64,000 bases of DNA, taken from contig CM075991.1 in NCBI GenBank assembly GCA_038087875.1, forward strand, positions 13,642,001 through 13,706,000, given 5' to 3'. The DNA comes from Malacoraja senta (Eukaryota). Of this stretch, positions 17,678-64,000 are shown in pieces. Positions within the stretch are counted from its first letter, which is position 1. Every line of letters begins with the position of its first letter. Made by a program: the position numbers and the translations under genes. The notes beneath the pieces were generated by a model that was given only the letters and a program-made list of their open reading frames with translations, did not search any database and was not told the DNA's origin.

Positions 17678-17766
17678 ATTTTGATTTTCCGTTTCCCCAC
17701 TGATACCCTGCTCTATTTCCTCTACCCCTGCCGTTATTACCCCCCTTGATACCTCCCCCCCGCTAC

Positions 17767-20002: not shown

Positions 20003-20405
20003 GATTTGTAGGTTAATTGGTTTTTGTAAACTGTCCCTAGTGTGTAGGATAGTGCTAGTGTACGGGGTGATCGCTGGATTGTGCTGGATTGTGCAGGATA
20101 GTGCTAGTGTACGGGGTGATCGCTGGATTGTGCAGGATAGTGCTAGTGTACGGGGTGATCGCTGGATTGTGAAGGAGAGTGCTGGTGTACGGGGTGATCG
20201 CTGGATTGTGAAGGAGAGTGCTGGTGTATGGGGTGATCGCTGGATTGTGCAGGATAGTGCTAGTGTACGGGGTGATTGCTGGATTGTGCAGGATAGTGCT
20301 AGTGTACGGGGTGATCGCTGGATTGTGCAGGATAGTGCTAGTGTACGGGGTGATCGCTGGATTGTGCAGACTCGGTGGGCCAGATGGCCTATTTCCACAC
20401 TATCT
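20003..20405 (+). repeat. SINE 3' half with an internal 39-bp tandem expansion (~8 copies)
   Basis: Unit gtgcaggatagtgctagtgtacggggtgatcgctggatt; single-copy in the SINE at 21395-21437. Confidence 0.92.
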
Positions 20406-41166: not shown

Positions 41167-43083
41167 TAAGTTACTCCCGCACTTTGTCTAATTGCAGAGA
41201 AGGAAGTTGGAACATTTCAAACATTAAAATGTTATGTTAATTTGATTTTTCAGCATCAAGTGTACCTGGATTTGGTCTTTATGGATGTCATAGGAAGGTA
41301 AGGTACCTATTTCTAACTCTCTTCAATTTAATGGAATAATTGTGTTACATTATTGATGGCTGTTCCCAATTTGTTTCTTCAACATCGAGGAGCTCGCAGT
41401 CTCTGGTAGAGACCGATGTCGGGAAGCTCCAAAGAACGCAAAAGGTTCGACTAGACCCCGAGTGAGCTGTGATTGAACCCCCCGATGCAGGAGCCCCGAC
41501 ACGGACGGCCCGACCGCCGGCTACGGGAGTCCCGTCAACGGAAGGCTCGAGGCCCCAGACCATGGGAGACCAAAGAAGGAAAGAGTTTGAACTTTGTGTT
41601 CTGTTGTTTTTTATTGGTATGAGTGGATGGTAAATGATATTCCTCGTGTTGCAAACATAAATTTTTTGCAACACGTGCCACCCCATGCTTCAATTGTGAG
41701 TAAACACAGTGCTGGAGGAACTTGGTGGGTTTGACAACCTCTGAAGAAATGGACAGATGACTAATTGGGGCGGGAGCTCTCAGTCTGAAATATGGGGGAG
41801 AGCTGGAAATGAGGTGGGGGTTGGGCAATGCCTGACAAGTGATGGGTGGATTACAGGTGATTGGGTGATGGGCAAATGGATGGAGTAAGTGCCAAAGGCT
41901 GAAGGTGAAAGTGATAAAACATGTTGGATAAGGACAAGAACAAGAACTGAAATGTAAAACCAGTGTGAGATGGGGTTGGAAGGTAAAAGGGAAATGTGGA
42001 CAAGGAGTTGAGAGATGAGCATACTTCCCTTCATTAACTAAGTAATAACTCAATAATAATAATAACTAAATAATAATAATAATAACTAAATAATAATAAT
42101 AATGACTAAATAATAATACCAACTAAATAGTAATACCAACTAACTAGTCCTTTCTTGTACGCTCATCTCTCAAACAGACCCATATTCCCTCTCTCTGTTC
42201 CACCCATCTCTCTCCTAGTTTCATATTTCTGTTATCTCCTTATTTGGCATTTTGTCCCTCTCACCTTGAGCCTCTGGCACTCACTCCATCCAAATGCTAA
42301 TCACGCCTCACATGTACCACCTATTTACTTGCTGACTTTGTCCTGCGTGCCTCTGCCAATTTTCACTCTCTTTCATCAGTCTGAGTTAGGTTGCTGACCT
42401 GAGATGTCATCTGTCCATTCCACTTGCAGTCAGGCAGATTGTGCCTGTACTGCTGTATGCCTCCAGCACTTTTGTCTTTGGACAGAGCCATGTTCCCCGG
42501 TTGTAGTTGGCTCCTGTTACAGGGAGTGTGGAGTTTAATATTTTTGACTGAAACTCTGGGGGATTGGGTTTTCCAGGTATTTTTAACCATCTGGACACCA
42601 CTGAATGTTTGTTTATATCTAATGTTCAAATGTCCACGTGAAGAGTAAGGTATCGGGCAACAAGGTTGGGAGAACACTTGTGAAATATAATGGGTATTTG
42701 ATGTAACTGGGGTGTGCTGTGCTTGTAAATTGTGTCAGTGCTGGAGCAACTCGATGGGTGCAGCAACATCGCTGGAGAACATGTATTGGTAATTCTGGGT
42801 AGGGACTCTTCAGACATTAATCTCTTAAGGTAGTCAAAATATATTCGACTACCTTAATATTGGTCCAATCTGTAGGAGTCCTGACTGCAGAGACACAATG
42901 GTCCTGGTTGGAGATACATGTGAAGGCATTGTCCACATGTCCCAAGTGTTTTACCTTGAGGACTAGAATCTTCTCACCCAGGACTGTCCGACCCACTGAG
43001 TTACTCCCACACTTTGTCTAATTGTAGAGAAGGAAGTTGGAACATTTCAATCATTAAAATGTTATGTTAATTAGATTTTTCAG

Positions 43084-43127
43084 CATCAAGTCTACCTGGA
43101 TTTGGTCTTTATGGATGTCATAGGAAG
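43084..43127 (+). ncRNA. Representative 44-nt exon-like cassette present once per monomer
   Basis: tttttcag|catcaagtctacctggatttggtctttatggatgtcataggaag|gtaagg. AG and GT are both intact in 10 of 13 copies. Confidence 0.45.
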
Positions 43128-46100
43128 GTAAGGCACTTATTTCTAACCCTCTTAAGTTTAATGGGATAAATGTGTTACATTATTGATGGCTGTTCCCAAT
43201 TTGTTTCTTCAACATCGAGGAGCTCGCAGTCTCTGGTAGAGACCGATGTCGGGATGCTCCAAAGAACGCAAAAGATTCGACTAGACCCCGAGTGAGCTGT
43301 GATTGAAACCCCCGATGCAGGACCCCCGACACGGACGGCCCGACCCCCGGCTACGGGAGTCAAGATTGTCCCATCAATGGAAGGCTCGAGGCACCAGACC
43401 AAAGAAGGGAAGAGTTTGAACTTTGTGTTCTGTTGCTTTTTATTGGTATGAGTGTATGGTAAATGAAATTCCTCGTGTTGCAAAGCATACTTTTTTTGCA
43501 ACACGAGCCACCCCATGCTTGAATCGTGAGTAAATACACAGTGCTGGAGGAACTTGGTGGGTTTGACAACCTCTGAAGAAATGGGCAGATGACTCATTGG
43601 GTCCGGAGCTCTCAGTCTGAAATATGGGGGAGAGCTAGAAATGAGGTGGGGGTTGGGCACTGCCTGACAAGTGATGGGTGGATTACAGGTGAGTGGGTGA
43701 TGGGCAAATGGATGGAGAAAATGCCAAAGGCTGAAGATGGAAGTGATCAAACATGTTGGATAAGGACAAGAACTGTGAAATGTAAAACCAGGGTGAGGTG
43801 GGGTTGGAAGGTAAAAGGGAAATATGGGACAGTTGAGAGATGAGCATATGTCCCTTCATTAACTAAGTAACAATAATAACTAAACAATAGTAATAACTAA
43901 ATAATAATAATAACAATAATGATAATAACTAAATGATAATAGTAACAATAATGGTAAGAACTAAATAATGATAAGAACTAAATGATAAGAACTAAATAAT
44001 ACCAAGTAACTAGTCCTTTCTTGTACGCTCATCTCTCAAACAGTTCCATATTCCCTCTCTCCCTTCCACCCATATCTCTCCTAGTTTCACTGTTCTCTCC
44101 TTATTTGGCATTTTGAGCCTTTGGCACTCACTCCATCCATATGCTAATCACGCCTCGCATGTACCACCTATTTACTTGCTGACTTTGTCCTGCGTGCCTC
44201 TGCCTCTTTTCACTCTCTTTCATCAGTCTGAGGAAGGTTGCTGACCTGAGATGTCATCTGTCCATTCCACTTGCAGTCAGGCAGATTGTGCCTGAACTGC
44301 TGAATGCCTCCAGCACTTTGTCTTTGGACAGAGCCATATTCCCTGGTTGTAGTTGGCTCCTGTTTCAGGGAATGTAGAGTTTAATATTTTTGACTGAAAC
44401 TCTGGGGTGTTGGGTTTTTCTAGGAATTTTCTAACCATCTCGACAACACTAAATGTTTGTTTATATCTAACGTTTAAATGTCCACATGAAGAGTAATGCA
44501 TCTGGGCAACAAGTTTGGGAGAACACTTGTGAAATATATTGGGTATTTGATGTGCTTGTAAATTGTGTCAGCGCTGGAGCAACTCGATGGGTACAGCAAC
44601 ATCGCTGGAGAACATGGATTGGTAATTCTGGGCTGGGACTCTTCAGACCTTAAACTCTTCAGGTAGTCTAAATATATTCAACTACCTTAATATTGGTCCA
44701 ATCTGTGGGAGTCCTGACTGCAGAGACACAATGGTCCTGGTTGGAGATACATCTCCAGGCATTGTCCACATAAAACGAGGTATTCTAGTTTTACCTTGAG
44801 GACTAGAATCTTCTCACTGAGGACTGTCCGACCCACTAAGTTACTCCCGCACTTTGTCTAATTGTAGAGAAGGAAGTTGGAACATTTCAAACATTAAAAT
44901 GTTATGTTAATTTGATTTTTCAGCATCAAGTGTACCTGGATTTGGTCTTTATGGATGTCATAGGAAGGTAAGGTACCTATTTCTAACTCTCTTCAATTTA
45001 ATGGAATAATTGGGTTACATTATTGATGGCTGTTCCCAATTTGTTTCTTCAACATCGAGGAGCTCGCAGTCTCTGGTAGAGACCGATGTCGGGAAGCTCC
45101 AAAGAACGCAAAAGGTTCGACTAGACCCCGAGTGAGCTGTGATTGAACCCCCCGATGCAGGAGCCCCGACACGGACGGCCCGACCGCCGGCTACGGGAGT
45201 CCCGTCAACGGAAGGCTCGAGGCCCCAGACCATGGGAGACCAAAGAAGGAAAGAGTTTGAACTTTGTGTTCTGTTGTTTTTTATTGGTATGAGTGGATGG
45301 TAAATTATATTCCTCGTGTTGCAAACATAAATTTTTTGCAACACGTGCCACCCCATGCTTCAATTGTGAGTAAATACAGTGCTGGAGGAACTTGGTGGGT
45401 TTGACAACCTCTGAAGAAATGGACAGATGACTAATTGGGGCGGGAGCTCTCAGTCTGAAATATGGGGGAGAGCTGGAAATGAGGTGGGGGTTGGGCAATG
45501 CCTGACAAGTGATGGGTGGATTACAGGTGATTGGGTGATGGGCAAATGGATGGAGTAAGTGCCAAAGGCTGAAGGTGAAAGTGATAAAACATGTTGGATA
45601 AGGACAAGAACAAGAACTGAAATGTAAAACCAGTGTGAGATGGGGTTGGAAGGTAAAAGGGAAATGTGGACAAGGAGTTGAGAGATGAGCATACATCCCT
45701 TCATTAACTAAGTAATAACTAAATAATAATAACTAAATAATAATAATAACTAAATAATAATAATAACTAAATAATAATAATAACTAAATAATAATAATAA
45801 TAACTAAATAATAATACCAACTAAATAGTAATACCAACTAACTAGTCCTTTCTTGTACGCTCATCTCTCAAACAGACCCATATTCCCTCTCTCTGTTCCA
45901 CCCATCTCTCTCCTAGTTTCATATTTCTGTTATCTCCTTATTTGGCATTTTGTCCCTCTCACCTTGAGCCTCTGGCACTCACTCCATCCAAATGCTAATC
46001 ACGCCTCACATGTACCACCTATTTACTTGCTGACTTTGTCCTGCGTGCCTCTGCCAATTTTCACTCTCTTTCATCAGTCTGAGGTAGGTTGCTGACCTGA

Positions 46101-49100
46101 GATGTCATCTGTCCATTCCACTTGCAGTCAGGCAGATTGTGCCTGAGCAGGTGAATGCCTCCAGCACTTTGTCTTTGGACAGAGCCATGTTCCCCGGTTG
46201 TAGTTGGCTCCTGTTACAGGGAGTGTGGAGTTTAATATTTTTGACTGAAACTCTGGGGGATTGGGTTTTCCAGGTATTTTTAACCATCTGGACACCACTG
46301 AATGTTTGTTTATATCTAACGTTCAAATGTCCACGTGAAGAGTAAGGTATCGGGCAACAAGGTTGGGAGAACACTTGTGAAATATAATGGGTATTTGATG
46401 TAACTGGGGTGTGCTGTGCTTGTAAATTGTGTCAGTGCTGGAGCAACTCGATGGGTGCAGCAACATCGCTGGAGAACATGTATTGGTAATTCTGGGTAGG
46501 GACTCTTCAGACATTAATCTCTTAAGGTAGTCAAAATATATTCGACTACCTTAATATTGGTCCAATCTGTAGGAGTCCTGACTGCAGAGACACAATGGTC
46601 CTGGTTGGAGATACATGTGAAGGCATTGTCCACATGTCCCAAGTGTTTTACCTTGAGGACTAGAATCTTCTCACCCAGGACTGTCCGACCCACTGAGTTA
46701 CTCCCACACTTTGTCTAATTGTAGAGAAGGAAGTTGGAACATTTCAATCATTAAAATGTTATGTTAATTAGATTTTTCAGCATCAAGTCTACCTGGATTT
46801 GGTCTTTATGGATGTCATAGGAAGGTAAGGCACTTATTTCTAACCCTCTTAAGTTTAATGGGATAAATGTGTTACATTATTGATGGCTGTTCCCAATTTG
46901 TTTCTTCAACATCGAGGAGCTCGCAGTCTCTGGTAGAGACCGATGTCGGGATGCTCCAAAGAACGCAAAAGATTCAACTAGACCCCGAGTGAGCTGTGAT
47001 TGAAACCCCCGATGCAGGACCCCCGACACGGACGGCCCGACCCCCGGCTACGGGAGTCAAGATTGTCCCATCAATGGAAGGCTCGAGGCACCAGACCAAA
47101 GAAGGGAAGAGTTTGAACTTTGTGTTCTGTTGCTTTTTTTTGGTATGAGTGTATGGTAAATGAAATTCCTCGTGTTGCAAAGCATACTTTTTTTGCAACA
47201 CGAGCCACCCCATGCTTGAATCGTGAGTAAATACACAGTGCTGGAGGAACTTGGTGGGTTCGACAACCTCTGAAGAAATGGGCAGATGACTCATTGGGTC
47301 CAGAGCTCTCAGTCTGAAATACGGGGGAGAGCTAGAAATGAGGTGGGGGTTGGGCACTGCCTGACAAGTGATGGGTGGATTACAGGTGAGTGGGTGATGG
47401 GCAAATGGATGGAGAAAATGCCAAAGGCTGAAGATAGAAGTGATCAAACGTGTTGGATAAGGACAAGAACTGTGAAATGTAAAACCAGGGTGAGGTGGGG
47501 TTGGAAGGTAAAAGGGAAATATGGGACAGTTGAGAGATGAGCATATGTCCCTTCATTAACTAAGTAACAATAATAACTAAACAATAGTAATAACTAAATA
47601 ATAATAATAACAATAATGATAATAACTAAATGATAATAGTAACAATAATGGTAAGAACTAAATAATGATAAGAACTAAATGATAAGAACTAAATAATACC
47701 AAGTAACTAGTCCTTTCTTGTACGCTCATCTCTCAAACAGTTCCATATTCCCTCTCTCCCTTCCACCCATATCTCTCCTAGTTTCATTGTTCTCTCCTTA
47801 TTTGGCATTTTGAGCCTTTGGCACTCACTCCATCCATATGCTAATCACGCCTCGCATGTACCACCTATTTACTTGCTGACTTTGTCCTGCGTGCCTCTGC
47901 CTCTTTTCACTCTCTTTCATCAGTCTGAGGAAGGTTGCTGACCTGAGATGTCATCTGTCCATTCCACTTGCAGTCAGGCAGATTGTGCCTGAACTGCTGA
48001 ATGCCTCCAGCACTTTGTCTTTGGACAGAGCCATATTCCCTGGTTGTAGTTGGCTCCTGTTTCAGGGAATGTAGAGTTTAATATTTTTGACTGAAACTCT
48101 GGGGTGTTGGGTTTTTCTAGGAATTTTCTAACCATCTCGACAACACTAAATGTTTGTTTATATCTAACGTTTAAATGTCCACATGAAGAGTAATGCATCT
48201 GGGCAACAAGTTTGGGAGAACACTTGTGAAATATATTGGGTATTTGATGTGCTTGTAAATTGTGTCAGCGCTGGAGCAACTCGATGGGTACAGCAACATC
48301 GCTGGAGAACATGGATTGGTAATTCTGGGTTGGGACTCTTCAGACCTTAAACTCTTCAGGTAGTCTAAATATATTCAACTACCTTAATATTGGTCCAATC
48401 TGTGGGAGTCCTGACTGCAGAGACACAATGGTCCTGGTTGGAGATACATCTCCAGGCATTGTCCACATAAAACGAGGTATTCTAGTTTTACCTTGAGGAC
48501 TAGAATCTTCTCACTGAGGACTGTCCGACCCACTAAGTTACTCCCGCACTTTGTCTAATTGTAGAGAAGGAAGTTGGAACATTTCAAACATTAAAATGTT
48601 ATGTTAATTTGATTTTTCAGCATCAAGTGTACCTGGATTTGGTCTTTATGGATGTCATAGGAAGGTAAGGTACCTATTTCTAACTCTCTTCAATTTAATG
48701 GAATAATTGGGTTACATTATTGATGGCTGTTCCCAATTTGTTTCTTCAACATCGAGGAGCTCGCAGTCTCTGGTAGAGACCGATGTCGGGAAGCTCCAAA
48801 GAATGCAAAAGGTTCGACTAGACCCCGAGTGAGCTGTGATTGAACCCCCCGATGCAGGAGCCCCGACACGGACGGCCCGACCGCCGGCTACGGGAGTCCC
48901 GTCAACGGAAGGCTCGAGGCCCCAGACCATGGGAGACCAAAGAAGGAAAGAGTTTGAACTTTGTGTTCTGTTGTTTTTTATTGGTATGAGTGGATGGTAA
49001 ATGATATTCCTCGTGTTGCAAACATAAATGTTTTGCAACACGTGCCACCCCATGCTTCAATTGTGAGTAAATACAGTGCTGGAGGAACTTGGTGGGTTTG

Positions 49101-52100
49101 ACAACCTCTGAAGAAATGGACAGATGACTAATTGGGGCGGGAGCTCTCAGTCTGAAATATGGGGGAGAGCTGGAAATGAGGTGGGGGTTGGGCAATGCCT
49201 GACAAGTGATGGGTGGATTACAGGTGATTGGGTGATGGGCAAATGGATGGAGTAAGTGCCAAAGGCTGAAGGTGAAAGTGATAAAACATGTTGGATAAGG
49301 ACAAGAACAAGAACTGAAATGTAAAACCAGTGTGAGATGGGGTTGGAAGGTAAAAGGGAAATGTGGACAAGGAGTTGAGAGATGAGCATACATCCCTTCA
49401 TTAACTAAGTAATAACTAAATAATAATAACTAAATAATAATAATAACTAAATAATAATAATAACTAAATAATAATAATAATAACTAAATAATAATACCAA
49501 CTAAATAGTAATACCAACTAACTAGTCCTTTCTTGTACGCTCATCTCTCAAACAGACCCATATTCCCTCTCTCTGTTCCACCCATCTCTCTCCTAGTTTC
49601 ATATTTCTGTTATCTCCTTATTTGGCATTTTGTCCCTCTCACCTTGAGCCTCTGGCACTCACTCCATCCAAATGCTAATCACGCCTCACATGTACCACCT
49701 ATTTACTTGCTGACTTTGTCCTGCGTGCCTCTGCCAATTTTCACTCTCTTTCATCAGTCTGAGTTAGGTTGCTGACCTGAGATGTCATCTGTCCATTCCA
49801 CTTGCAGTCAGGCAGATTGTGCCTGTACTGCTGTATGCCTCCAGCACTTTTGTCTTTGGACAGAGCCATGTTCCCCGGTTGTAGTTGGCTCCTGTTACAG
49901 GGAGTGTGGAGTTTAATATTTTTGACTGAAACTCTGGGGGATTGGGTTTTCCAGGTATTTTTAACCATCTGGACACCACTGAATGTTTGTTTATATCTAA
50001 TGTTCAAATGTCCACGTGAAGAGTAAGGTATCGGGCAACAAGGTTGGGAGAACACTTGTGAAATATAATGGGTATTTGATGTAACTGGGGTGTGCTGTGC
50101 TTGTAAATTGTGTCAGTGCTGGAGCAACTCGATGGGTGCAGCAACATCGCTGGAGAACATGTATTGGTAATTCTGGGTAGGGACTCTTCAGACATTAATC
50201 TCTTAAGGTAGTCAAAATATATTCGACTACCTTAATATTGGTCCAATCTGTAGGAGTCCTGACTGCAGAGACACAATGGTCCTGGTTGGAGATACATGTG
50301 AAGGCATTGTCCACATGTCCCAAGTGTTTTACCTTGAGGACTAGAATCTTCTCACCCAGGACTGTCCGACCCACTGAGTTACTCCCACACTTTGTCTAAT
50401 TGTAGAGAAGGAAGTTGGAACATTTCAATCATTAAAATGTTATGTTAATTAGATTTTTCAGCATCAAGTCTACCTGGATTTGGTCTTTATGGATGTCATA
50501 GGAAGGTAAGGCACTTATTTCTAACCCTCTTAAGTTTAATGGGATAAATGTGTTACATTATTGATGGCTGTTCCCAATTTGTTTCTTCAACATCGAGGAG
50601 CTCGCAGTCTCTGGTAGAGACCGATGTCGGGATGCTCCAAAGAACGCAAAAGATTCGACTAGACCCCGAGTGAGCTGTGATTGAAACCCCCGATGCAGGA
50701 CCCCCGACACGGACGGCCCGACCCCCGGCTACGGGAGTCAAGATTGTCCCATCAATGGAAGGCTCGAGGCACCAGACCAAAGAAGGGAAGAGTTTGAACT
50801 TTGTGTTCTGTTGCTTTTTATTGGTATGAGTGTATGGTAAATGAAATTCCTCGTGTTGCAAAGCATACTTTTTTTGCAACACGAGCCACCCCATGCTTGA
50901 ATCGTGAGTAAATACACAGTGCTGGAGGAACTTGGTGGGTTTGACAACCTCTGAAGAAATGGGCAGATGACTCATTGGGTCCGGAGCTCTCAGTCTGAAA
51001 TATGGGGGAGAGCTAGAAATGAGGTGGGGGTTGGGCACTGCCTGACAAGTGATGGGTGGATTACAGGTGAGTGGGTGATGGGCAAATGGATGGAGAAAAT
51101 GCCAAAGGCTGAAGATGGAAGTGATCAAACATTTTGGATAAGGACAAGAACTGTGAAATGTAAAACCAGGGTGAGGTGGGGTTGGAAGGTAAAAGGGAAA
51201 TATGGGACAGTTGAGAGATGAGCATATGTCCCTTCATTAACTAAGTAACAATAATAACTAAACAATAGTAATAACTAAATAATAATAATAACAATAATGA
51301 TAATAACTAAATGATAATAGTAACAATAATGGTAAGAACTAAATAATGATAAGAACTAAATGATAAGAACTAAATAATACCAAGTAACTAGTCCTTTCTT
51401 GTACGCTCATCTCTCAAACAGTTCCATATTCCCTCTCTCCCTTCCACCCATATCTCTCCTAGTTTCACTGTTCTCTCCTTATTTGGCATTTTGAGCCTTT
51501 GGCACTCACTCCATCCATATGCTAATCACGCCTCGCATGTACCACCTATTTACTTGCTGACTTTGTCCTGCGTGCCTCTGCCTCTTTTCACTCTCTTTCA
51601 TCAGTCTGAGGAAGGTTGCTGACCTGAGATGTCATCTGTCCATTCCACTTGCAGTCAGGCAGATTGTGCCTGAACTGCTGAATGCCTCCAGCACTTTGTC
51701 TTTGGACAGAGCCATATTCCCTGGTTGTAGTTGGCTCCTGTTTCAGGGAATGTAGAGTTTAATATTTTTGACTGAAACTCTGGGGTGTTGGGTTTTTCTA
51801 GGAATTTTCTAACCATCTCGACAACACTAAATGTTTGTTTATATCTAACGTTTAAATGTCCACATGAAGAGTAATGCATCTGGGCAACAAGTTTGGGAGA
51901 ACACTTGTGAAATATATTGGGTATTTGATGTGCTTGTAAATTGTGTCAGCGCTGGAGCAACTCGATGGGTACAGCAACATCGCTGGAGAACATGGATTGG
52001 TAATTCTGGGCTGGGACTCTTCAGACCTTAAACTCTTCAGGTAGTCTAAATATATTCAACTACCTTAATATTGGTCCAATCTGTGGGAGTCCTGACTGCA

Positions 52101-55100
52101 GAGACACAATGGTCCTGGTTGGAGATACATCTCCAGGCATTGTCCACATAAAACGAGGTATTCTAGTTTTACCTTGAGGACTAGAATCTTCTCACTGAGG
52201 ACTGTCCGACCCACTAAGTTACTCCCGCACTTTGTCTAATTGTAGAGAAGGAAGTTGGAACATTTCAAACATTAAAATGTTATGTTAATTTGATTTTTCA
52301 GCATCAAGTGTACCTGGATTTGGTCTTTATGGATGTCATAGGAAGGTAAGGTACCTATTTCTAACTCTCTTCAATTTAATGGAATAATTGGGTTACATTA
52401 TTGATGGCTGTTCCCAATTTGTTTCTTCAACATCGAGGAGCTCGCAGTCTCTGGTAGAGACCGATGTCGGGAAGCTCCAAAGAACGCAAAAGGTTCGACT
52501 AGACCCCGAGTGAGCTGTGATTGAACCCCCCGATGCAGGAGCCCCGACACGGACGGCCCGACCGCCGGCTACGGGAGTCCCGTCAACGGAAGGCTCGAGG
52601 CCCCAGACCATGGGAGACCAAAGAAGGAAAGAGTTTGAACTTTGTGTTCTGTTGTTTTTTATTGGTATGAGTGGATGGTAAATGATATTCCTCGTGTTGC
52701 AAACATAAATTTTTTGCAACACGTGCCACCCCATGCTTCAATTGTGAGTAAATACAGTGCTGGAGGAACTTGGTGGGTTTGACAACCTCTGAAGAAATGG
52801 ACAGATGACTAATTGGGGCGGGAGCTCTCAGTCTGAAATATGGGGGAGAGCTGGAAATGAGGTGGGGGTTGGGCAATGCCTGACAAGTGATGGGTGGATT
52901 ACAGGTGATTGGGTGATGGGCAAATGGATGGAGTAAGTGCCAAAGGCTGAAGGTGAAAGTGATAAAACATGTTGGATAAGGACAAGAACAAGAACTGAAA
53001 TGTAAAACCAGTGTGAGATGGGGTTGGAAGGTAAAAGGGAAATGTGGACAAGGAGTTGAGAGATGAGCATACATCCCTTCATTAACTAAGTAATAACTAA
53101 ATAATAATAACTAAATAATAATAATAACTAAATAATAATAATAACTAAATAATAATAATAATAACTAAATAATAATACCAACTAAATAGTAATACCAACT
53201 AACTAGTCCTTTCTTGTACGCTCATCTCTCAAACAGACCCATATTCCCTCTCTCTGTTCCACCCATCTCTCTCCTAGTTTCATATTTCTGTTATCTCCTT
53301 ATTTGGCATTTTGTCCCTCTCACCTTGAGCCTCTGGCACTCACTCCATCCAAATGCTAATCACGCCTCACATGTACCACCTATTTACTTGCTGACTTTGT
53401 CCTGCGTGCCTCTGCCAATTTTCACTCTCTTTCATCAGTCTGAGGTAGGTTGCTGACCTGAGATGTCATCTGTCCATTCCACTTGCAGTCAGGCAGATTG
53501 TGCCTGAGCAGGTGAATGCCTCCAGCACTTTGTCTTTGGACAGAGCCATGTTCCCCGGTTGTAGTTGGCTCCTGTTACAGGGAGTGTGGAGTTTAATATT
53601 TTTGACTGAAACTCTGGGGGATTGGGTTTTCCAGGTATTTTTAACCATCTGGACACCACTGAATGTTTGTTTATATCTAACGTTTAAATGTCCACATGAA
53701 GAGTAATGCATCTGGGCAACAAGTTTGGGAGAACACTTGTGAAATATATTGGGTATTTGATGTGCTTGTAAATTGTGTCAGAGCTGGAGCAACTCGATGG
53801 GTACAGCAACATCGCTGGAGAACATGGATTGGTAATTCTGGGTTGGGACTCTTCAGACATTAAACTCTTCAGGTAGTCTAAATATATTCGACTACCTTAA
53901 TATTGGTCCAATCTGTAGGAGTCCTGACTGCAGAGACACAATGGTCCTGGTTGGAGATACATCTCCAGGCATTGTCCACATGTCCACATAAAACAAGGTA
54001 TTCTAGTTTTACCTTGAGGACTAGAATCTTCTCACTGAGGACTGTCCGACCCACTAAGTTACTCCCGCACTTTGTCTAATTGTAGAGAAGGAAGTTGGAA
54101 CATTTCAAACATTAAAATGTTATGTTAATTTGATTTTTCAGCATCAAGTGTACCTGGATTTGGTCTTTATGGATGTCATAGGAAGGTAAGGTACCTATTT
54201 CTAACTCTCTTCCATTAAATGGAATAATTGGGTTACATTATTGATGGCTGTTCCCAATTTGTTTCTTCAACATCGAGGAGCTCGCAGTCTCTGGTAGAGA
54301 CCAATGTCGGGAAGCTCCAAAGAACGCGAAAGGTTCGACTAGACCCCGAGTGAGCTGTGATTGAACCCCCCGATGCAGGAGCCCCGATACGGACGGCCCG
54401 ACCGCCGGCTACGGGAGTCCCGTCAACGGAAGGCTCGATGACCCAGACCATGGGAGACCAAAGAAGGAAAGAGTTTGAACTTTGTTCTGTTGTTTTTTAT
54501 TGGTATGAGTGGATGGTAAATGATATTCCTCGTGTTGCAAACATAATTTTTTTGCAACACGTGGCACCCCATGCTTCAATTGTGAGTAAATACAGTGCTG
54601 GAGGAACTTGGTGGGTTTGACAACCTCTGAAGAAATGGACAGATGACTAATTGGGTCCGGAGCTCTCAGTCTGAAATATGGGGGAGAGCTGGAAATGAGG
54701 TGGGGGTTGGGCACTGCCTGACAAGTGATGGGTGGATTACAGGTGATTGGGTGATGGGCAAATGGATGGAGTAAGTGCCAAAGGCTGAAGGTGAAAGTGA
54801 TAAAACATGTTGGATAAGGACAAGATCAAGAACTGAAATGTAAAACCAGTGTGAGATGGGGTTGGAAGGTAAAAGGGAAATGTGGACAAGGAGTTGAGAG
54901 ATGAGCATACTTCCCTTCATTAACTAAGTAATAACTAAATAATAATAATAACTAAATAATAATAATCACTAAATGATAATAATAATGACTAAATAATAAT
55001 ACCAACTAAATAGTAATACCAACTAACTAGTCCTTTCTTGTACGCTCATCTCTCAAACAGTCCCATATTCCCTCTCTCTCTTCCACCCATCTCTCTCCTA

Positions 55101-56093
55101 GTTTCATATTTCTGTTATCTCCTTATTTGGCATTTTGTCCCTCTCACCTTGAGCCTCTGGCACTCACTCCATCCATATGCTAATCACGCCTCGCATGTAC
55201 CACCTATTTACTTGCTGACTTTGTCCTGCGTGCCTCTGCCTCTTTTCACTCTCTTTCATCAGTCTGAGGAAGGTTGCTGACCTGAGATGTCATCTGTCCA
55301 TTCCACTTGCAGTCAGGCAGATTGTGCGTGAACTGCTGAATGCCTCCAGCACTTTGTCTTTGGACAGAGCCATATTCCCTGGTTGTAGTTGGCTCCTGTT
55401 TCAGGGAATGTAGAGTTTAATATTTTTGACTGAAACTCTGGGGTGTTGGGTTTTTCTAGGAATTTTCTAACCATCTCGACAACACTAAATGTTTGTTTAT
55501 ATCTAACGTTTAAATGTCCACATGAAGAGTAATGCATCTGGGCAACAAGTTTGGGAGAACACTTGTGAAATATATTGGGTATTTGATGTGCTTGTAAATT
55601 GTGTCAGAGCTGGAGCAACTCGATGGGTACAGCAACATCGCTGGAGAACATGGATTGGTAATTCTGGGTTGGGACTCTTCAGACATTAAACTCTTCAGGT
55701 AGTCTAAATATATTCGACTACCTTAATATTGGTCCAATCTGTAGGAGTCCTGACTGCAGAGACACAATGGTCCTGGTTGGAGATACATCTCCAGGCATTG
55801 TCCACATGTCCACATAAAACAAGGTATTCTAGTTTTACCTTGAGGACTAGAATCTTCTCACTGAGGACTGTCCGACCCACTAAGTTACTCCTGCACTTTG
55901 TCTAATTGTAGAGAAGGAAGTTGGAACATTTCAAACATTAAAATGTTATGTTAATTTGATTTTTCTGCATCAAGTCTACCTGGATTTGGTCTTTATAGAT
56001 GTCATAGGAAGGTAAGGTACGTATTTCTAACCCTCTTCAGTTTAATGGAATAATTGTGTTACATTATTGATGGCTGTTCCAAATTTGTTTCTT

Positions 56094-56369
56094 AGTTACG
56101 TTTTTTGACCTATGGACCTATCTCCTAAGTTGTATTATTGATAGTTTATCTTACTTTTCTAATTTCTTCTTTATTTCTTTATTTTCCTTGTCTATAAATT
56201 TAAATAAATAATTAGAGGCAACGTTAATATTTAACCGATAAAGGAGGACCTACTACTTTGGTAACTGGGTACCCGGAACCATGGATACTTAATATGAAAT
56301 CGTTATACAAAGTTTGTATTGGGTTGGACTATGATATGCAGATACCTCTAATAAAACAAATTAAAACAT
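56094..56369 (+). mobile_element. Retroposed AT-rich fragment (L1-type 3' UTR-like) with 14-bp TSD
   Basis: TSD CAAATTTGTTTCTT at 56080-56093 and 56370-56383; ends in aataaa plus an A-rich tail. Confidence 0.8.
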
Positions 56370-56413
56370 CAAATTTGTTTCTTCAACATCGAGGAGCTCG
56401 TAGTCTCTGGTAG

Positions 56414-57170
56414 GAATTGAAGTGACTGAGTGAGATATGGCGGAACCAAGGACTCACGGTTAACCCTGAAATATTGGTGTGTAATATAACAATTATATAT
56501 TGAATCGTCGGATTAATAAGTATTGAGACGTTAACCGAGACCAAGGTACCCCCGTATCTCACAGAAAGTCCGCCTTAGACTGGTTGTTAAGAGAGGAAAT
56601 CCTCCACGCGAAGGTCAGGAATTGAAGTGACCGAGTGAGATACGGCAGAACCAAGGACTCACGGTTAACCCTGAACTATTGGTGTGTAATAATATAAGTA
56701 TTTTAAAAAATGGGTAATGGTATGGACACCAGTTGTCACCCGGACTGGCCATTACATCAGCTATGTTTCTTGCATCCAGAAATGCATTATTAGACCTTCA
56801 GGCGTATGTCGGGAAGGGGGTTCCAAGGATATGGGTGTGTTATCAAGGGCCCAGAGTGTAATATGGAAAAAGGATAAAAAAAGAAATTATAAAAAGGCCA
56901 TTCAGTTGTGGATCGATCATTGTAACGGAGAAAAGGCACGGTCATTAACGGCCAGTTGGCAGAGTAAGGCCTTGAAACTAGTAATTCCCCTGACCGAGGG
57001 GGGTCAGGAGATGTCGGTGACCGTATTAAAACAGTAATGTAGGCATGCTAAGGAAAGTAAGGATCGTCAGGAGAGAGGGAGACAAAATAAGGCCGAGGTA
57101 GATAAAGTTGGTGCTGGCATAGATTTGGGAGGTGATGACGAGGGTTGGGGTTTGGGTTAGGGTTAGGGTT
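56414..57170. other. Unclassified ~760-bp insert ending in a short degenerate TTAGGG tract
   Basis: Replaces ~250 bp of the monomer; internal ~60-bp direct repeat (56413/56618); ends agggttggggtttgggttagggttagggtt. Confidence 0.75.
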
Positions 57171-57989
57171 TTTTGGAACACGAACCACCCCATGCTTGAA
57201 TCATGAGTAAATACACAGTGCTGGAGGAACCTGGTGGGTTTGACAACCTCTGAAGAAATGGGCAGATGACTCATTGGGTCCGGAGCTCTCAGTCTGAAAT
57301 AGGGGGGAGAGCTGGAAATGAGGTGGGGGTTGGGCACTGCCCGACAAGTGATGGGTGGATTAAAATGGATGGAGAAAATGCCAAAGGCTGAAGATGGAAG
57401 TGATCAAACGTGTTGGATAAGGACAAGAACTGTGAAATGTAAAACCAGGGTGAGGTGGGGTTGGAAGGTAAAAGGGAAATATGGGACAGTTGAGAGATGA
57501 GCATATGTCCCTTCATTAACTAAGTAACAATAATAACTAAACAATAGTAATAACTAAATAATAATAATAACAATAATGATAATAACTAAATGATAATAGT
57601 AACAATAATGGTAAGAACTAAATAATGATAAGAACTAAATGATAAGAACTAAATAATACCAAGTAACTAGTCCTTTCTTGTACGCTCATCTCTCAAACAG
57701 TTCCATATTCCCTCTCTCCCTTCCACCCATATCTCTCCTAGTTTCATTGTTCTCTCCTTATTTGGCATTTTGAGCCTTTGGCACTCACTCCATCCATATG
57801 CTAATCACGCCTCGCATGTACCACCTATTTACTTGCTGACTTTGTCCTGCGTGCCTCTGCCTCTTTTCACTCTCTTTCATCAGTCTGAGGAAGGTTGCTG
57901 ACCTGAGATGTCATCTGTCCATTCCACTTGCAGTCAGGCAGATTGTGCCTGAACTGCTGAATGCCTCCAGCACTTTGTCTTTGGACAGA

Positions 57990-60354
57990 GGGTTTAGAGT
58001 CGTTAGGGTTTAGAGTCGTTAGGGTTTAGAGTCGTTAGGGTTTAGAGTCGTTAGGGTTTAGAGTCGTTAGGGTTTAGAGTCGTTAGGGTTTAGAGTCGTT
58101 AGGGTTTAGAGTCGTTAGGGTTTAGAGTCGTTAGGGTTTAGAGTCGTTAGGGTTTAGAGTCGTTAGGGTTTAGAGTCGTTAGGGTTTAGAGTCGTTAGGG
58201 TTTAGAGTCGTTAGGGTTTAGAGTCGTTAGGGTTTAGAGTCGTTAGGGTTTAGAGTCGTTAGGGTTTAGAGTCGTTAGGGTTTAGAGTCGTTAGGGTTTA
58301 GAGTCGTTAGGGTTTAGAGTCGTTAGGGTTTAGAGTCGTTAGGGTTTAGAGTCGTTAGGGTTTAGAGTCGTTAGGGTTTAGAGTCGTTAGGGTTTAGAGT
58401 CGTTAGGGTTTAGAGTCGTTAGGGTTTAGAGTCGTTAGGGTTTAGAGTCGTTAGGGTTTAGAGTCGTTAGGGTTTAGAGTCGTTAGGGTTTAGAGTCGTT
58501 AGGGTTTAGAGTCGTTAGGGTTTAGAGTCGTTAGGGTTTAGAGTCGTTAGGGTTTAGAGTCGTTAGGGTTTAGAGTCGTTAGGGTTTAGAGTCGTTAGGG
58601 TTTAGAGTCGTTAGGGTTTAGAGTCGTTAGGGTTTAGAGTCGTTAGGGTTTAGAGTCGTTAGGGTTTAGAGTCGTTAGGGTTTAGAGTCGTTAGGGTTTA
58701 GAGTCGTTAGGGTTTAGAGTCGTTAGGGTTTAGAGTCGTTAGGGTTTAGAGTCGTTAGGGTTTAGAGTCGTTAGGGTTTAGAGTCGTTAGGGTTTAGAGT
58801 CGTTAGGGTTTAGAGTCGTTAGGGTTTAGAGTCGTTAGGGTTTAGAGTCGTTAGGGTTTAGAGTCGTTAGGGTTTAGAGTCGTTAGGGTTTAGAGTCGTT
58901 AGGGTTTAGAGTCGTTAGGGTTTAGAGTCGTTAGGGTTTAGAGTCGTTAGGGTTTAGAGTCGTTAGGGTTTAGAGTCGTTAGGGTTTAGAGTCGTTAGGG
59001 TTTAGAGTCGTTAGGGTTTAGAGTCGTTAGGGTTTAGAGTCGTTAGGGTTTAGAGTCGTTAGGGTTTAGAGTCGTTAGGGTTTAGAGTCGTTAGGGTTTA
59101 GAGTCGTTAGGGTTTAGAGTCGTTAGGGTTTAGAGTCGTTAGGGTTTAGAGTCGTTAGGGTTTAGAGTCGTTAGGGTTTAGAGTCGTTAGGGTTTAGAGT
59201 CGTTAGGGTTTAGAGTCGTTAGGGTTTAGAGTCGTTAGGGTTTAGAGTCGTTAGGGTTTAGAGTCGTTAGGGTTTAGAGTCGTTAGGGTTTAGAGTCGTT
59301 AGGGTTTAGAGTCGTTAGGGTTTAGAGTCGTTAGGGTTTAGAGTCGTTAGGGTTTAGAGTCGTTAGGGTTTAGAGTCGTTAGGGTTTAGAGTCGTTAGGG
59401 TTTAGAGTCGTTAGGGTTTAGAGTCGTTAGGGTTTAGAGTCGTTAGGGTTTAGAGTCGTTAGGGTTTAGAGTCGTTAGGGTTTAGAGTCGTTAGGGTTTA
59501 GAGTCGTTAGGGTTTAGAGTCGTTAGGGTTTAGAGTCGTTAGGGTTTAGAGTCGTTAGGGTTTAGAGTCGTTAGGGTTTAGAGTCGTTAGGGTTTAGAGT
59601 CGTTAGGGTTTAGAGTCGTTAGGGTTTAGAGTCGTTAGGGTTTAGAGTCGTTAGGGTTTAGAGTCGTTAGGGTTTAGAGTCGTTAGGGTTTAGAGTCGTT
59701 AGGGTTTAGAGTCGTTAGGGTTTAGAGTCGTTAGGGTTTAGAGTCGTTAGGGTTTAGAGTCGTTAGGGTTTAGAGTCGTTAGGGTTTAGAGTCGTTAGGG
59801 TTTAGAGTCGTTAGGGTTTAGAGTCGTTAGGGTTTAGAGTCGTTAGGGTTTAGAGTCGTTAGGGTTTAGAGTCGTTAGGGTTTAGAGTCGTTAGGGTTTA
59901 GAGTCGTTAGGGTTTAGAGTCGTTAGGGTTTAGAGTCGTTAGGGTTTAGAGTCGTTAGGGTTTAGAGTCGTTAGGGTTTAGAGTCGTTAGGGTTTAGAGT
60001 CGTTAGGGTTTAGAGTCGTTAGGGTTTAGAGTCGTTAGGGTTTAGAGTCGTTAGGGTTTAGAGTCGTTAGGGTTTAGAGTCGTTAGGGTTTAGAGTCGTT
60101 AGGGTTTAGAGTCGTTAGGGTTTAGAGTCGTTAGGGTTTAGAGTCGTTAGGGTTTAGAGTCGTTAGGGTTTAGAGTCGTTAGGGTTTAGAGTCGTTAGGG
60201 TTTAGAGTCGTTAGGGTTTAGAGTCGTTAGGGTTTAGAGTCGTTAGGGTTTAGAGTCGTTAGGGTTTAGAGTCGTTAGGGTTTAGAGTCGTTAGGGTTTA
60301 GAGTCGTTAGGGTTTAGAGTCGTTAGGGTTTAGAGTCGTTAGGGTTTAGAGTCG
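57990..60354 (+). repeat. Telomere-like satellite zone A: (TTAGGGTTTAGAGTCG)n, ~148 copies
   Basis: Apparently perfect 16-bp periodicity, G-rich strand running toward the window end. Confidence 0.98.
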
Positions 60355-63300
60355 TTAGGGTTTAGGGTCGTTAGGGTTTAGAGTCGTTAGGGTTTAGAGT
60401 CGTTAGGGTTTAGGGTCGTTAGGGTTTAGGGTCGTTAGGGTTTAGGGTCGTTAGGGTTTAGGGTCGTTAGGGTTTAGGGTCGTTAGGGTTTAGGGTCGTT
60501 AGGGTTTAGGGTCGTTAGGGTTTAGGGTCGGTTTAGGGTCGTTAGGGTTTAGGGTCGTTAGGGTTTAGGGTCGTTAGGGTTTAGGGTCGTTAGGGTTTAG
60601 GGTCGTTAGGGTTTAGGGTCGTTAGGGTTTTGGGTCGTTAGGGTTTAGGGTCGTTAGGGTTTAGGGTCGTTAGGGTTTAGGGTCGTTAGGGTTTAGGGTC
60701 GTTAGGGTTTAGGGTCGTTAGGGTTTAGGGTCGTTAGGGTTTAGGTCGTTAGGGTTTAGGGTCGTTAGGGTTTTAGGGTCGTTAGGGTTTAGGGTCGTTA
60801 GGGTTTAGGGTCGTTAGGGTTTAGGGTCGTTAGGGTTTAGGGTCGTTAGGGTTTAGGGTCGTTAGGGTTTAGGGTCGTTAGGGTTTAGGGTCGTTAGGGT
60901 TTAGGGTCGTTAGGGTTTAGGGTCGTTAGGGTTTAGGGTCGTTAGGGTTTAGGGTCGTTAGGGTTTTAGGGTCGTTAGGGTTTAGGGTCGTTAGGGTTTA
61001 GGGTCGTTAGGGTTTAGGGTCGTTAGGGTTTAGGGTCGTTAGGGTTTAGGGTCGTTAGGGTTTAGGGTCGTTAGGGTTTAGGGTCGTTAGGGTTTAGGGG
61101 TCGTTAGGGTTTAGGGTCGTTAGGGTTTAGGGTCGTTAGGGTTTAGGGTCGTTAGGGTTTAGGGTCGTTAGGGTTTAGGGTCGTTAGGGTTTAGGGTCGT
61201 TAGGGTTTAGGGTCGTTAGGGTTTAGGGTCGTTAGGGTTTAGGGTCGTTAGGGTTTAGGGTCGTTAGGGTTTAGGGTCGTTAGGGTTTAGGGTCGTTAGG
61301 GTTTAGGGTCGTTAGGGTTTAGGGTCGTTAGGGTTTAGGGTCGTTAGGGTTTAGGGTCGTTAGGGTTTAGGGTCGTTAGGGTTTAGGGTCGTTAGGGTTT
61401 AGGGTCGTTAGGGTTTAGGGTCGTTAGGGTTTAGGGTCGTTAGGGTTTAGGGTCGTTAGGGTTTAGGGTCGTTAGGGTTTAGGGTCGTTAGGGTTTAGGG
61501 TCGTTAGGGTTTAGGGTCGTTAGGGTTTAGGGTCGTTAGGGTTTAGGGTCGTTAGGGTTTAGGGTCGTTAGGGTTTAGGGTCGTTAGGGTTTAGGGTCGT
61601 TAGGGTTTAGGGTCGTTAGGGTTTAGGGTCGTTAGGGTTTAGGGTCGTTAGGGTTTAGGGTCGTTAGGGTTTAGGGTCGTTAGGGTTTAGGGTCGTTAGG
61701 GTTTAGGGTCGTTAGGGTTTAGGGTCGTTAGGGTTTAGGGTCGTTAGGGTTTAGGGTCGTTAGGGTTTAGGGTCGTTAGGGTTTAGGGTCGTTAGGGTTT
61801 AGGGTCGTTAGGGTTTAGGGTCTTTGGGTTAGGTTTAGGGTCGTTAGGGTTTAGGGTCGTTAGGGTTTAGGGTCGTTAGGGTTTAGGGTCGTTAGGGTTT
61901 AGGGTCGTTAGGGTTTAGGGTCGTTAGGGTTTAGGGTCGTTAGGGTTTAGGGTCGTTAGGGTTTAGGGTCGTTAGGGTTTAGGGTCGTTAGGGTTTAGGG
62001 TCGTTAGGGTTTAGGGTCGTTAGGGTTTAGGGTCGTTAGGGTTTAGGGTCGTTAGGGTTTAGGGGTCGTTAGGGTTTAGGGTCGTTAGGGTTTAGGGTCG
62101 TTAGGGTTTAGGGTCGTTAGGGTTTAGGGTCGTTAGGGTTTAGGGTCGTTAGGGTTTAGGGTCGTTAGGGTTTAGGGTCGTTAGGGTTTAGGGTCGTTAG
62201 GGTTTAGGGTCGTTAGGGTTTAGGGTCGTTAGGGTTTAGGGTCGTTAGGGTTTAGGGTCGTTAGGGTTTAGGGTCGTTAGGGTTTAGGGTTTAGGTTTTG
62301 GGTCGTTAGGGTTTAGGGTCGTTAGGGTTTAGGGTCGTTAGGGTTTAGGGTCGTTAGGGTTTAGGGTCGTTAGGGTTTAGGGTCGTTAGGGTTTAGGGTC
62401 GTTAGGGTTTAGGGTCGTTAGGTTTAGGGTCGTTAGGGTTTAGGGTCGTTAGGGTTTTAGGGTCGTTAGGGTTTAGGGTCGTTAGGGTTTAGGGTCGTTA
62501 GGGTTTAGGGTCGTTAGGGTTTAGGGTCGTTAGGGTTTAGGGTCGTTAGGGTTTAGGGTCGTTAGGGTTTAGGGTCGTTAGGGTTTAGGGTCGTTAGGGT
62601 TTAGGGTCGTTAGGGTTTAGGGTCGTTAGGGTTTAGGGTCGTTAGGGTTTAGGGTCGTTAGGGTTTAGGGTCGTTAGGGTTTAGGGTCGTTAGGGTTTAG
62701 GGTCGTTAGGGTTTAGGGTCGTTAGGGTTTAGGGTCGTTAGGGTTTAGGGTCGTTAGGGTTTAGGGTCGTTAGGGTTTAGGGTCGTTAGGGTTTAGGGTC
62801 GTTAGGGTTTAGGGTCGTTAGGGTTTAGGGTCGTTAGGGTTTAGGGTCGTTAGGGTTTAGGGTCGTTAGGGTTTAGGGTCGTTAGGGTTTAGGGTCGTTA
62901 GGGTTTAGGGTCGTTAGGGTTTAGGGTCGTTAGGGTTTAGGGTCGTTAGGGTTTAGGGTCGTTAGGGTTTAGGGTCGTTAGGGTTTAGGGTCGTTAGGGT
63001 TTAGGGTCGTTAGGGTTTAGGGTCGTTAGGGTTTAGGGTCGTTAGGGTTTAGGGTCGTTAGGGTTTAGGGTCGTTAGGGTTTAGGGTCGTTAGGGTTTAG
63101 GGTCGTTAGGGTTTAGGGTCGTTAGGGTTTAGGGTCGTTAGGGTTTAGGGTCGTTAGGGGTTTAGGGTCGTTAGGGTTTAGGGTCGTTAGGGTTTAGGGT
63201 CGTTAGGGTTTAGGGTCGTTAGGGTTTAGGGGTCGTTAGGGTTTAGGGTCGTTAGGGTTTAGGGTCGTTAGGGTTTAGGGTCGTTAGGGTTTAGGGTCGT

Positions 63301-63860
63301 TAGGGTTTAGGGTCGTTAGGGTTTAGGGGTCGTTAGGGTTTAGGGTCGTTAGGGTTTAGGGTCGTTAGGGTTTAGGGTCGTTAGGGTTTAGGGTCGTTAG
63401 GGTTTAGGGTCGTTAGGGTTTAGGGTCGTTAGGGTTTAGGGTCGTTAGGGTTTAGGGTCGTTAGGGTTTAGGGTCGTTAGGGTTTAGGGTCGTTAGGGTT
63501 TAGGGTCGTTAGGGTTTAGGGTCGTTAGGGTTTAGGGTCGTTAGGGTTTAGGGTCGTTAGGGTTTAGGGTCGTTAGGGTTTAGGGTCGTTAGGGTTTAGG
63601 GTCGTTAGGGTTTAGGGTCGTTAGGGTTTAGGGTCGTTAGGGTTTAGGGTCGTTAGGGTTTAGGGTCGTTAGGGTTTAGGGTCGTTAGGGTTTAGGGTCG
63701 TTAGGGTTTAGGGTCGTTAGGGTTTAGGGTCGTTAGGGTTTAGGGTCGTTAGGGTTTAGGGTCGTTAGGGTTTAGGGTCGTTAGGGTTTAGGGTCGTTAG
63801 GGTTTAGGGTCGTTAGGGTTTAGGGTCGTTAGGGTTTAGGGTCGTTAGGGTTTAGGGTCG
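60355..63860 (+). repeat. Telomere-like satellite zone B: (TTAGGGTTTAGGGTCG)n, ~215-220 copies
   Basis: Single A>G change relative to zone A; sporadic homopolymer indels. Confidence 0.98.
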
Positions 63861-64000
63861 TTAGGGTTTAGGGGGGTTAGGGTTTAGGGGGTTAGGGTTT
63901 AGGGGGGTTAGGGTTTAGGGGGGTTAGGGTTTAGGGGGGTTAGGGTTTAGAGGGGTTAGGGTTTAGAGGGGTTAGGGTTTAGAGGGGTTAGGGTTTAGAG
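63861..64000 (+). repeat. Telomere-like satellite zones C/D: TTAGGGTTTAGGGGGG then TTAGGGTTTAGAGGGG
   Basis: The ~16-bp period is retained and TCG is replaced by GGG; the tract runs off the window end. Confidence 0.9.

What the first reader, a model, noticed from the sequence alone, without database searches (positions are those of the whole stretch)
60340..64000. Variant zones form an ordered mutational series with a fixed 16-nt period
Seen: zone A (AGAGTCG) switches to zone B (AGGGTCG) through a short interdigitated junction (B,A,A,B at 60355-60420), then to GGGGGG and AGAGGGG units after 63860. TTAGGGTTTAG stays constant. Inference: kb-long homogeneous blocks one or two steps apart suggest burst amplification from a single template (rolling circle or break-induced replication, ALT-like). 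Less likely, they record changes in a long telomerase template. GGG runs per unit double from A to B, raising G-quadruplex potential distally.
Basis: partly seen in the sequence, partly recalled or inferred. Interest (0 to 1): 0.7.

Follow-up and report, generated by a model that had tools for sequence, protein, structure and literature searches.

The report
Telomere-like 16-base repeat, shark/ray genome
A shark-or-ray chromosome region ends in 6 kb of an unusual 16-base telomere-like repeat whose first form is abundant in related animals, but the 'ordered mutational series' of zones does not hold up and may partly be sequencing error; the open question is whether this repeat, not TTAGGG, caps the chromosomes.

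Summary
The zones are in the window as described: 147 flawless A units (58003-60354), a B,A,A,B junction, about 214 B units, then only 5 C and 3+ D units. The period is not fixed in B (14 of 214 units irregular, 0 of 147 in A; p=0.001). The four units are the four combinations of two sites, so the order A>B>C>D needs a reversion: it is no mutational series, and irregular units show no rolling-circle periodicity. The host is an elasmobranch. The array joins a truncated 1.84-kb subtelomeric unit sharply and holds no TTAGGG tandem. An A-type family is very abundant in 3 of 3 informative public runs (two organisms), probably at the depth cap, so A was not born at this end. B, C, D and the junction were not confirmed in any run; the A-to-B change is a known nanopore confusion and coincides with the onset of homopolymer noise. 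Best reading: a lineage-wide telomere-derived subterminal minisatellite, patched by recombination and slippage (0.45); distal zones as read error (0.30). Boldest open reading: a non-TTAGGG vertebrate telomere (0.15).

The parts
41165..56093 (+). Tandem array of a ~1.84-kb subtelomeric unit, alternating two types (dimer of ~3.69 kb); scattered older copies from ~20400
   Evidence: start-to-start 1824-1859; same-type copies 99.4-99.9% (one type) and 95-98% (other type) identical
56094..57140 (.). ~1.05-kb stretch found once in the window, interrupting the last full unit
   Evidence: no match elsewhere in 1-57990 except a 43-nt piece of the unit and an internal 75-nt duplicate
57141..57168 (+). 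Short telomere-like stub (five hexamer-like units, two canonical) running into a T-run that it shares with the next piece
   Evidence: the only TTAGGGTTAGGG on either strand in 1-57988 lies at 57157
57169..57990 (+). 822-nt piece of the 1.84-kb unit, truncated at its right end where the array starts
   Evidence: 9-10 mismatches and one 20-nt gap to the copies at 43492, 47189 and 50870; 13 of 14 anchor copies continue CCAT, this one continues into the array
57989..58002 (+). Sharp flank-to-array junction, 2-nt overlap (AG), partial A unit, no degenerate repeats
   Evidence: chance of a 2-nt or longer overlap 0.064; no listed contig bridged it
58003..60354 (+). Zone A: 147 perfect copies of the 16-nt A unit
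   Evidence: an A-type family is abundant in runs X1, X2, X3
60355..60402 (+). A/B junction: B, A, A
   Evidence: not tested in reads
60403..63860 (+). Zone B: 200 perfect B units and 14 irregular segments (10 single-base homopolymer indels, 1 substitution, 1 five-base deletion, 2 complex)
   Evidence: not confirmed in any run
63861..63939 (+). Zone C: four TTAGGGTTTAGGGGGG units and one 15-nt unit
   Evidence: not confirmed in any run
63940..64000 (+). Zone D: three TTAGGGTTTAGAGGGG units and a partial unit cut by the window edge
   Evidence: not confirmed in any run

Best explanation
The 16-nt unit is a telomere-derived minisatellite (a fused, mutated multiple of TTAGGG) that already exists as a high-copy family in this elasmobranch lineage. 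A broken subtelomeric 1.84-kb unit acquired an array of it by recombination with another array (telomere capture or break-induced copying primed on a 2-nt overlap). Slippage and unequal exchange keep long runs uniform; A, B, C and D are sister variants differing at two sites, and the zones are a patchwork of exchange tracts, not a time series. The canonical telomerase-made tip lies further out or is missing from the assembly. Shown: zone map, sharp junction, two-site structure, abundance of the A-type family elsewhere. Inferred: recombinational capture, reality of B/C/D, a distal canonical tip.
For: All four two-site combinations occur, which one lineage of point mutations cannot give without reversion. 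Contigs laid on the 62-nt repeat part sum to depth 327,000-593,000 in X1, X2 (organism A, two samples) and X3 (organism B); 257 of 727, 195 of 611 and 111 of 742 laid contigs fit two places of the stretch; canonical and plant-type 31-mers reach only 77-84% identity, under the 88% cut-off, so they cannot be the source. The flank itself is homogenised by tandem duplication and holds a second template-switch-like joint at a telomere stub (57141-57174). X3 shows a further sister form at a loose end (58048; 5 contigs, agreement 0.76). Local homogenisation and higher-order units of variant telomere repeats, explained by slippage and unequal crossing over, are documented in Arabidopsis (PMC11406999 sections 6 and 9); canonical ends are reported in a stingray, two mobulids and three sharks.
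Against: No run confirmed B, C, D, any zone joint or the flank junction; one search lists no A>G row in the repeat, so B made up under 5% of what was laid (or was not seeded: it shares only 15-nt exact runs with A). Noise begins exactly where B begins (0 of 147 vs 14 of 214, p=0.001; 9 of 214 at sites both units share, p=0.012), which fits a change of data quality. No canonical tract is seen in 6 kb, so the distal tip is assumed. A perfect array from the first base after a break is also the signature of telomerase healing.
Confidence: 0.45

Rival explanations
1. Zone A is real, but B, C and D are read-level errors: the assembly passes from a well-supported consensus to a single or poorly corrected long read, in which GAG is called GGG and, at the read end, TC is called GG. 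The 'series' is then an artefact. (Compatible with either origin of the A unit.)
For: Error-free sequence ends where B begins; 10 of 14 irregularities are one-base homopolymer indels, 0.4 events per 100 nt, aperiodic. (TTAGGG)n and (TTAGAG)n, also (TTGGGG)n, have similar nanopore current profiles and telomere-like repeats are miscalled in blocks (PMC9414165 passages). Random 1-bp indels dominate HiFi read ends in telomere arrays (PMC11406999 section 15). No A>G row in three runs although contigs with 8-9 differences in 70-85 nt were laid on the flank.
Against: The sequencing platform is unknown; the same paper did not see such block miscalls in HiFi data. 200 B units are called cleanly, with runs of 33-44 perfect copies. 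Similarity of currents was shown for hexamers, not for this 16-mer. B may have escaped seeding, and organisms A and B need not be the window's species or individual.
Confidence: 0.3
2. The 16-nt unit is what telomerase makes in this lineage (a template of about 20 nt), the junction at 57989 is a healed break, and this is a vertebrate without a TTAGGG telomere. A is the product; B to D are errors of reading or of the enzyme, or products of template paralogues.
For: A TAGGGTT core (TRF-binding, recalled) is kept in every unit. Template paralogues make mixed telomeres in Mimulus (PMC12169523 passages).
Against: No non-canonical vertebrate motif was known in 2023 or 2025 (PMC10767889, PMC12169523 passages); stingray, mobulid and shark ends are TTAGGG. 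The recalled POT1 10-mer and full TRF half-site are absent from all four units. A canonical stub lies 820 nt upstream. A 2-nt overlap arises by chance in 6% of cases, and most neotelomere junctions in cancers fit capture as well as telomerase (PMC11293586 passages). Three template changes including a reversion within 6 kb are implausible, so zones cannot be a template history.
Confidence: 0.13
3. The array is not at a chromosome end: it is a large interstitial or pericentromeric telomere-like satellite block, and the window or contig simply stops inside it.
For: The window edge cuts a unit; terminal position is unverified. Telomere motifs form interstitial satellite blocks in many vertebrates (PMC9693754 passages). 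High abundance fits a satellite.
Against: Orientation and a 15-kb tandem repeat just upstream look subtelomeric; no interstitial sites in three sharks by FISH.
Confidence: 0.07
4. One reading: each zone arose at this end as a new mutant unit amplified in one burst by rolling-circle or ALT-like copying, giving an ordered series.
For: Two kb-long uniform blocks one change apart with a 3-unit junction; ALT spreads variant repeats by recombination-templated synthesis (PMC3919612 abstract).
Against: Order needs a reversion; C and D are under 80 nt each within the window; no periodic recurrence of marked units (1283 of 2000 random sets scored as high); A exists abundantly in other samples; 0 changes in 2352 nt only bounds divergence at 0.13%, which at the very low elasmobranch mutation rate (recalled) is no evidence of a burst.
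Confidence: 0.05

Closest known systems
Telomere variant repeat (TVR) zones: Arabidopsis atlas (PMC11406999), human and cattle TVRs
   Same: Telomere-derived units next to subtelomeric DNA; local homogenisation; units built from several monomers; read-end homopolymer indels.
   Different: Those zones are 6-3,384 bp, mixed with canonical repeats (20.7% of units) and end-specific; here at least 6 kb, no canonical tandem, a sharp start, and a unit shared at high copy by two organisms.
Great-ape subterminal satellite StSat/pCht/Cht7 (PMC3643582, 10.64898/2026.10.19.760198, passages)
   Same: Short-period, lineage-wide, high-copy repeat next to vertebrate telomeres, thought to spread between ends by ectopic exchange.
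   Different: StSat is 32 bp and AT-rich; this unit is 16 nt, G-rich, keeps an intact TTAGGG and has a CpG. Multi-end location and heterochromatin are not shown here.
Nanopore repeat-calling errors at telomeres (PMC9414165, passages); block-organised double-monomer telomeres in Chenopodium (PMC10521516, abstract only)
   Same: Abrupt block-wise switches between motifs one or a few letters apart; TTAGGG/TTAGAG is a listed look-alike pair.
   Different: Here the A unit itself is found in independent runs; platform unknown; the 16-mer was not examined in that paper.
Long non-canonical telomerase motifs (Allium 12 nt, Bombus 11 nt per PMC10767889; yeasts, recalled)
   Same: A TTAGGG-like core plus extra letters in a longer unit; G-rich strand outward.
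   Different: Those are backed by a matching telomerase RNA template; none is known in vertebrates and none was tested here.
Neotelomeres / healed breaks (PMC11293586, passages)
   Same: Sharp junction, 0-3 nt microhomology, no degenerate zone.
   Different: Added repeats there are TTAGGG; here a 16-nt variant.

Membership tests
Canonical vertebrate telomere | Tandem (TTAGGG)n | tested here: not met
   0 TTAGGGTTAGGG in 57989-64000
Telomerase-made telomere (any motif) | G-rich strand runs 5'-3' towards the end | tested here: met
   41% G, 6% C on + strand, array runs off the right edge; that the edge is an end is unverified
Telomerase-made telomere (any motif) | Physically terminal (molecule ends, Bal31-sensitive, most chromosome ends) | not testable with these tools
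   no genome held; contigs cannot show ends
Telomerase-made telomere (any motif) | Telomerase RNA template complementary to the unit | not testable with these tools
   no Rfam match in the window; no elasmobranch template found
Telomerase-made telomere (any motif) | Shelterin sites (motifs recalled) | tested here: inconclusive
   TAGGGTT core once per unit; longer TRF site and POT1 10-mer absent
TVR zone | Variants interspersed with canonical repeats | tested here: not met
TVR zone | Local homogenisation into runs of one derived unit | tested here: met
   147 identical A units; B runs of up to 44
TVR zone | Canonical array distal to it | not testable with these tools
   window ends inside the array
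Subterminal satellite (StSat-like) | High-copy family shared across a lineage | tested here: met
   3 of 3 informative runs, 2 organisms; rough lower bound 166-1868 units per low-depth copy against 149 in the window (my assumption, the tool warns depth is no copy number)
Subterminal satellite (StSat-like) | Located next to telomeres at many chromosome ends; heterochromatic | not testable with these tools
   one window only
Rolling-circle / ALT amplification | Periodic recurrence of marked units | tested here: not met
   best lag shared by 6 pairs; 1283 of 2000 random sets reached it; uninformative if the irregular units are read errors or the circle was uniform
Rolling-circle / ALT amplification | C-circles, t-circles, APBs | not testable with these tools
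   bench assays
Nanopore repeat-calling artefact | Motifs differ by a known current look-alike change | tested here: inconclusive
   TTAGGG/TTAGAG pair listed in PMC9414165; not computed for the 16-mer; platform unknown
Nanopore repeat-calling artefact | Motif absent from other platforms, strand-specific in raw reads | tested here: inconclusive
   A present in three runs of unrecorded platform; B not seen but possibly not seeded; raw reads unavailable
Neotelomere / healed break | Sharp junction with 2-4 nt microhomology | tested here: met
   2 nt; chance 0.064; junction not bridged by a listed contig

The most novel reading that the evidence does not exclude
Probability: 0.15. Interest if true: 0.92.

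Novelty: new variant of a known kind. Interest (0 to 1): 0.5.

Why it matters
As a subterminal minisatellite it is an apparently undescribed elasmobranch counterpart of telomere-variant and StSat-type arrays, and it would hide chromosome ends from TTAGGG-based telomere finders. If the zones are read error it is a caution for telomere-to-telomere assemblies. If the unit is the true cap, it breaks the rule that all vertebrates share TTAGGG and makes telomerase-shelterin co-evolution testable in a vertebrate; one look at the species' telomerase RNA template settles it.

Tried and rejected
Own genome: none held, so other chromosome ends could not be compared. Earlier findings: nothing by place, sequence or relatives; one search gave analogues only. 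Pattern scans: 0 in genome contigs and viral contigs, 3 single matches in metagenome contigs that lie in degenerate TTTAGGG-type tracts, not arrays: rejected as chance. Run search shares (best 0.69, 0.67) cannot show the repeat, because the flank makes up 301 of 391 distinct 31-mers. I laid 4 of the 24 listed runs; X23 (raw reads, about 6% read) laid 0 and is no test. A suspected partial duplication inside zone B (motif order near 60622-60765 and 62277-62449) failed the lag test. My first Fisher test used 16 irregular units; recounted to 14. Template-history reading rejected (reversion; three template changes within 6 kb). Rfam: 0 matches. Literature searches showed no paper on this unit in the listings seen; one search matched 190 papers of which I saw 20 titles, none on telomeres.
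Full report
Observation. The array runs from 57989 to the window edge. Parsing gives 147 consecutive perfect A units (58003-60354), B,A,A (60355-60402), zone B (60403-63860), five C units and three D units plus a partial. The period is not fixed: zone B has 200 perfect units and 14 irregular segments, 10 of them single-base homopolymer indels, and the phase shifts 13 times. Only A and B are kb-long; C is 79 nt and D 61 nt within the window. And the order is no series: the units differ at two sites (position 12 A/G; positions 14-15 TC/GG) and A, B, C, D are all four combinations, so going A>B>C>D changes the first site and then changes it back. G3 runs do double from A to B; on a G4Hunter-like score A (0.69) and B (1.12) stay below the canonical repeat (1.5), C and D above.

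Host and surroundings. The best named homologues of a retroelement ORF in the window are from a stingray (65%), a catshark (58%), a sawfish and a sawshark: an elasmobranch. That its short repeats look skate-like is my recall and was not tested. No genome is held, so I cannot say that 64000 is a chromosome end. Upstream lies a tandem array of a 1.84-kb unit in alternating types, same-type copies up to 99.94% identical over 1800 nt. The last unit is interrupted by a 1.05-kb single-copy stretch that ends in a short telomere-like stub (57141-57168; the only TTAGGGTTAGGG in 1-57988), joined through a T-run to an 822-nt piece of the unit. That piece is cut at GGACAGAG: 13 of 14 copies go on with CCAT, this one goes straight into perfect A repeats with a 2-nt overlap, chance 0.064. 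There is no degenerate zone and no canonical tandem in the 6 kb.

Independent data. The run search listed 24 runs; the best shares (0.69, 0.67) are explained by flank alone. I laid 4 of them on 57660-58050 at 88% likeness. X23 laid nothing and is no test. In X1, X2 (organism A, two samples) and X3 (organism B) the central repeat bins sum to depth 327,000-593,000, and 257 of 727, 195 of 611 and 111 of 742 contigs fit two places. No A>G row appears in the repeat, so what was laid is mostly A at that site. A rough lower bound of my own is 166-1868 units per low-depth copy, against 149 in the window; the tool warns that summed depth is no copy number, and the platform of these runs is not on record. 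Against my reading: no listed contig bridges the flank junction (loose ends at 57990 are the intact unit), B, C, D and the zone joints were not seen, and these runs need not be the window's species. X3 has a loose end at 58048 pointing to a further sister unit (5 contigs, agreement 0.76): weak.

Mechanism. Shown: the A unit is a shared, abundant family, so it did not arise at this end; the four units are a two-site set; the junction is sharp. Inferred: the truncated subtelomeric unit captured an array by recombination, runs are kept uniform by slippage and unequal exchange as described for Arabidopsis variant arrays (PMC11406999), and zones are exchange tracts among sister variants, with a canonical tip further out (0.45). 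No rolling-circle signature was found: irregular units share no lag beyond chance (1283 of 2000). Uniformity does not date a burst: 0 changes in 2352 nt bounds divergence at 0.13%, and elasmobranch mutation rates are very low (recalled).

The artefact rival (0.30). Noise starts exactly with B (0 of 147 vs 14 of 214, p=0.001; p=0.012 counting only sites both units share). TTAGGG and TTAGAG arrays have look-alike nanopore currents and such repeats are miscalled in blocks, though not in HiFi (PMC9414165); HiFi read ends show random 1-bp indels in telomere arrays.

The telomerase rival (0.13, 0.15 with recombination-kept caps). A sharp start, outward G strand, absence of TTAGGG, sharing between organisms and possibly capped abundance are what a true telomere motif would give. 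Against: no non-canonical vertebrate motif was known (PMC10767889, PMC12169523); stingray, mobulid and shark ends are canonical; recalled POT1 and full TRF sites are missing; a canonical stub lies upstream. I found no statement on skate ends; a 2001 FISH paper on selachians was seen as a reference title only.

Known relatives. It works like a TVR zone or a StSat-type subterminal satellite; it fails TVR membership on interspersion with canonical repeats and meets the satellite test only on abundance. I found no description of the unit in the listings (20 of 190 titles seen for the motif search); subscription journals, the TeloBase tables and supplements were not seen and may bear on this. Papers seen: PMC11406999 abstract and sections 6, 9, 15; 10.1101/2025.06.08.657570 passages and section 5; abstracts only for PMC10521516 and PMC3919612; passages for 10.64898/2026.10.27.761883, PMC9414165, PMC10767889, 10.1101/2024.07.30.605881, PMC9693754, PMC12169523, PMC11293586, PMC7648076, 10.64898/2026.10.10.758172, 10.64898/2026.10.19.760198, PMC3643582.

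Verdict. Observation partly confirmed; interpretation partly supported in class (recombination) but not in its claim of an ordered series. What deserves follow-up is the 16-nt unit itself. New variant of a known kind; interest 0.5.

Noticed in passing
window 41165-56093: The 1.84-kb subtelomeric unit forms a dimeric higher-order repeat (~3.69 kb); copies at 43400 and 50778 differ at 1 of 1800 nt.
   Followed up: partly
window 57141-57174: Telomere-like stub joined through a shared T-run to a copy of the 1.84-kb unit: possibly the scar of an earlier end extended by template switching.
   Followed up: partly
window 56094-57140: Single-copy 1.05-kb stretch with an internal 75-nt duplicate (56412-56486 and 56617-56691, 95%); origin unknown.
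   Followed up: no
window 14784-18801, minus strand: Largely intact non-LTR retroelement: SGNH-esterase ORF (344 aa, PF13472 in homologues) and an 838-aa open frame that looks like a CR1-type reverse transcriptase (family recalled).
   Followed up: partly
window 14464-15072 and 34378-34986: 609-nt inverted pair at 99% identity, 19 kb apart: recent retroelement copies.
   Followed up: no
run X3, laid place 58048: Loose end suggesting a longer sister unit whose third element is a TGAGGG-type hexamer, a hint that the 16-mer shrank from a three-hexamer unit (5 contigs, agreement 0.76).
   Followed up: no
window 6783-7382, 10579-11160, 20083-20369: Further minisatellites of 35-40 nt period, two strongly C-rich on the + strand.
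   Followed up: no
window 58003-63860: A and B each carry one CpG per unit, which the canonical repeat lacks; C and D lose it. The array could be methylated.
   Followed up: no
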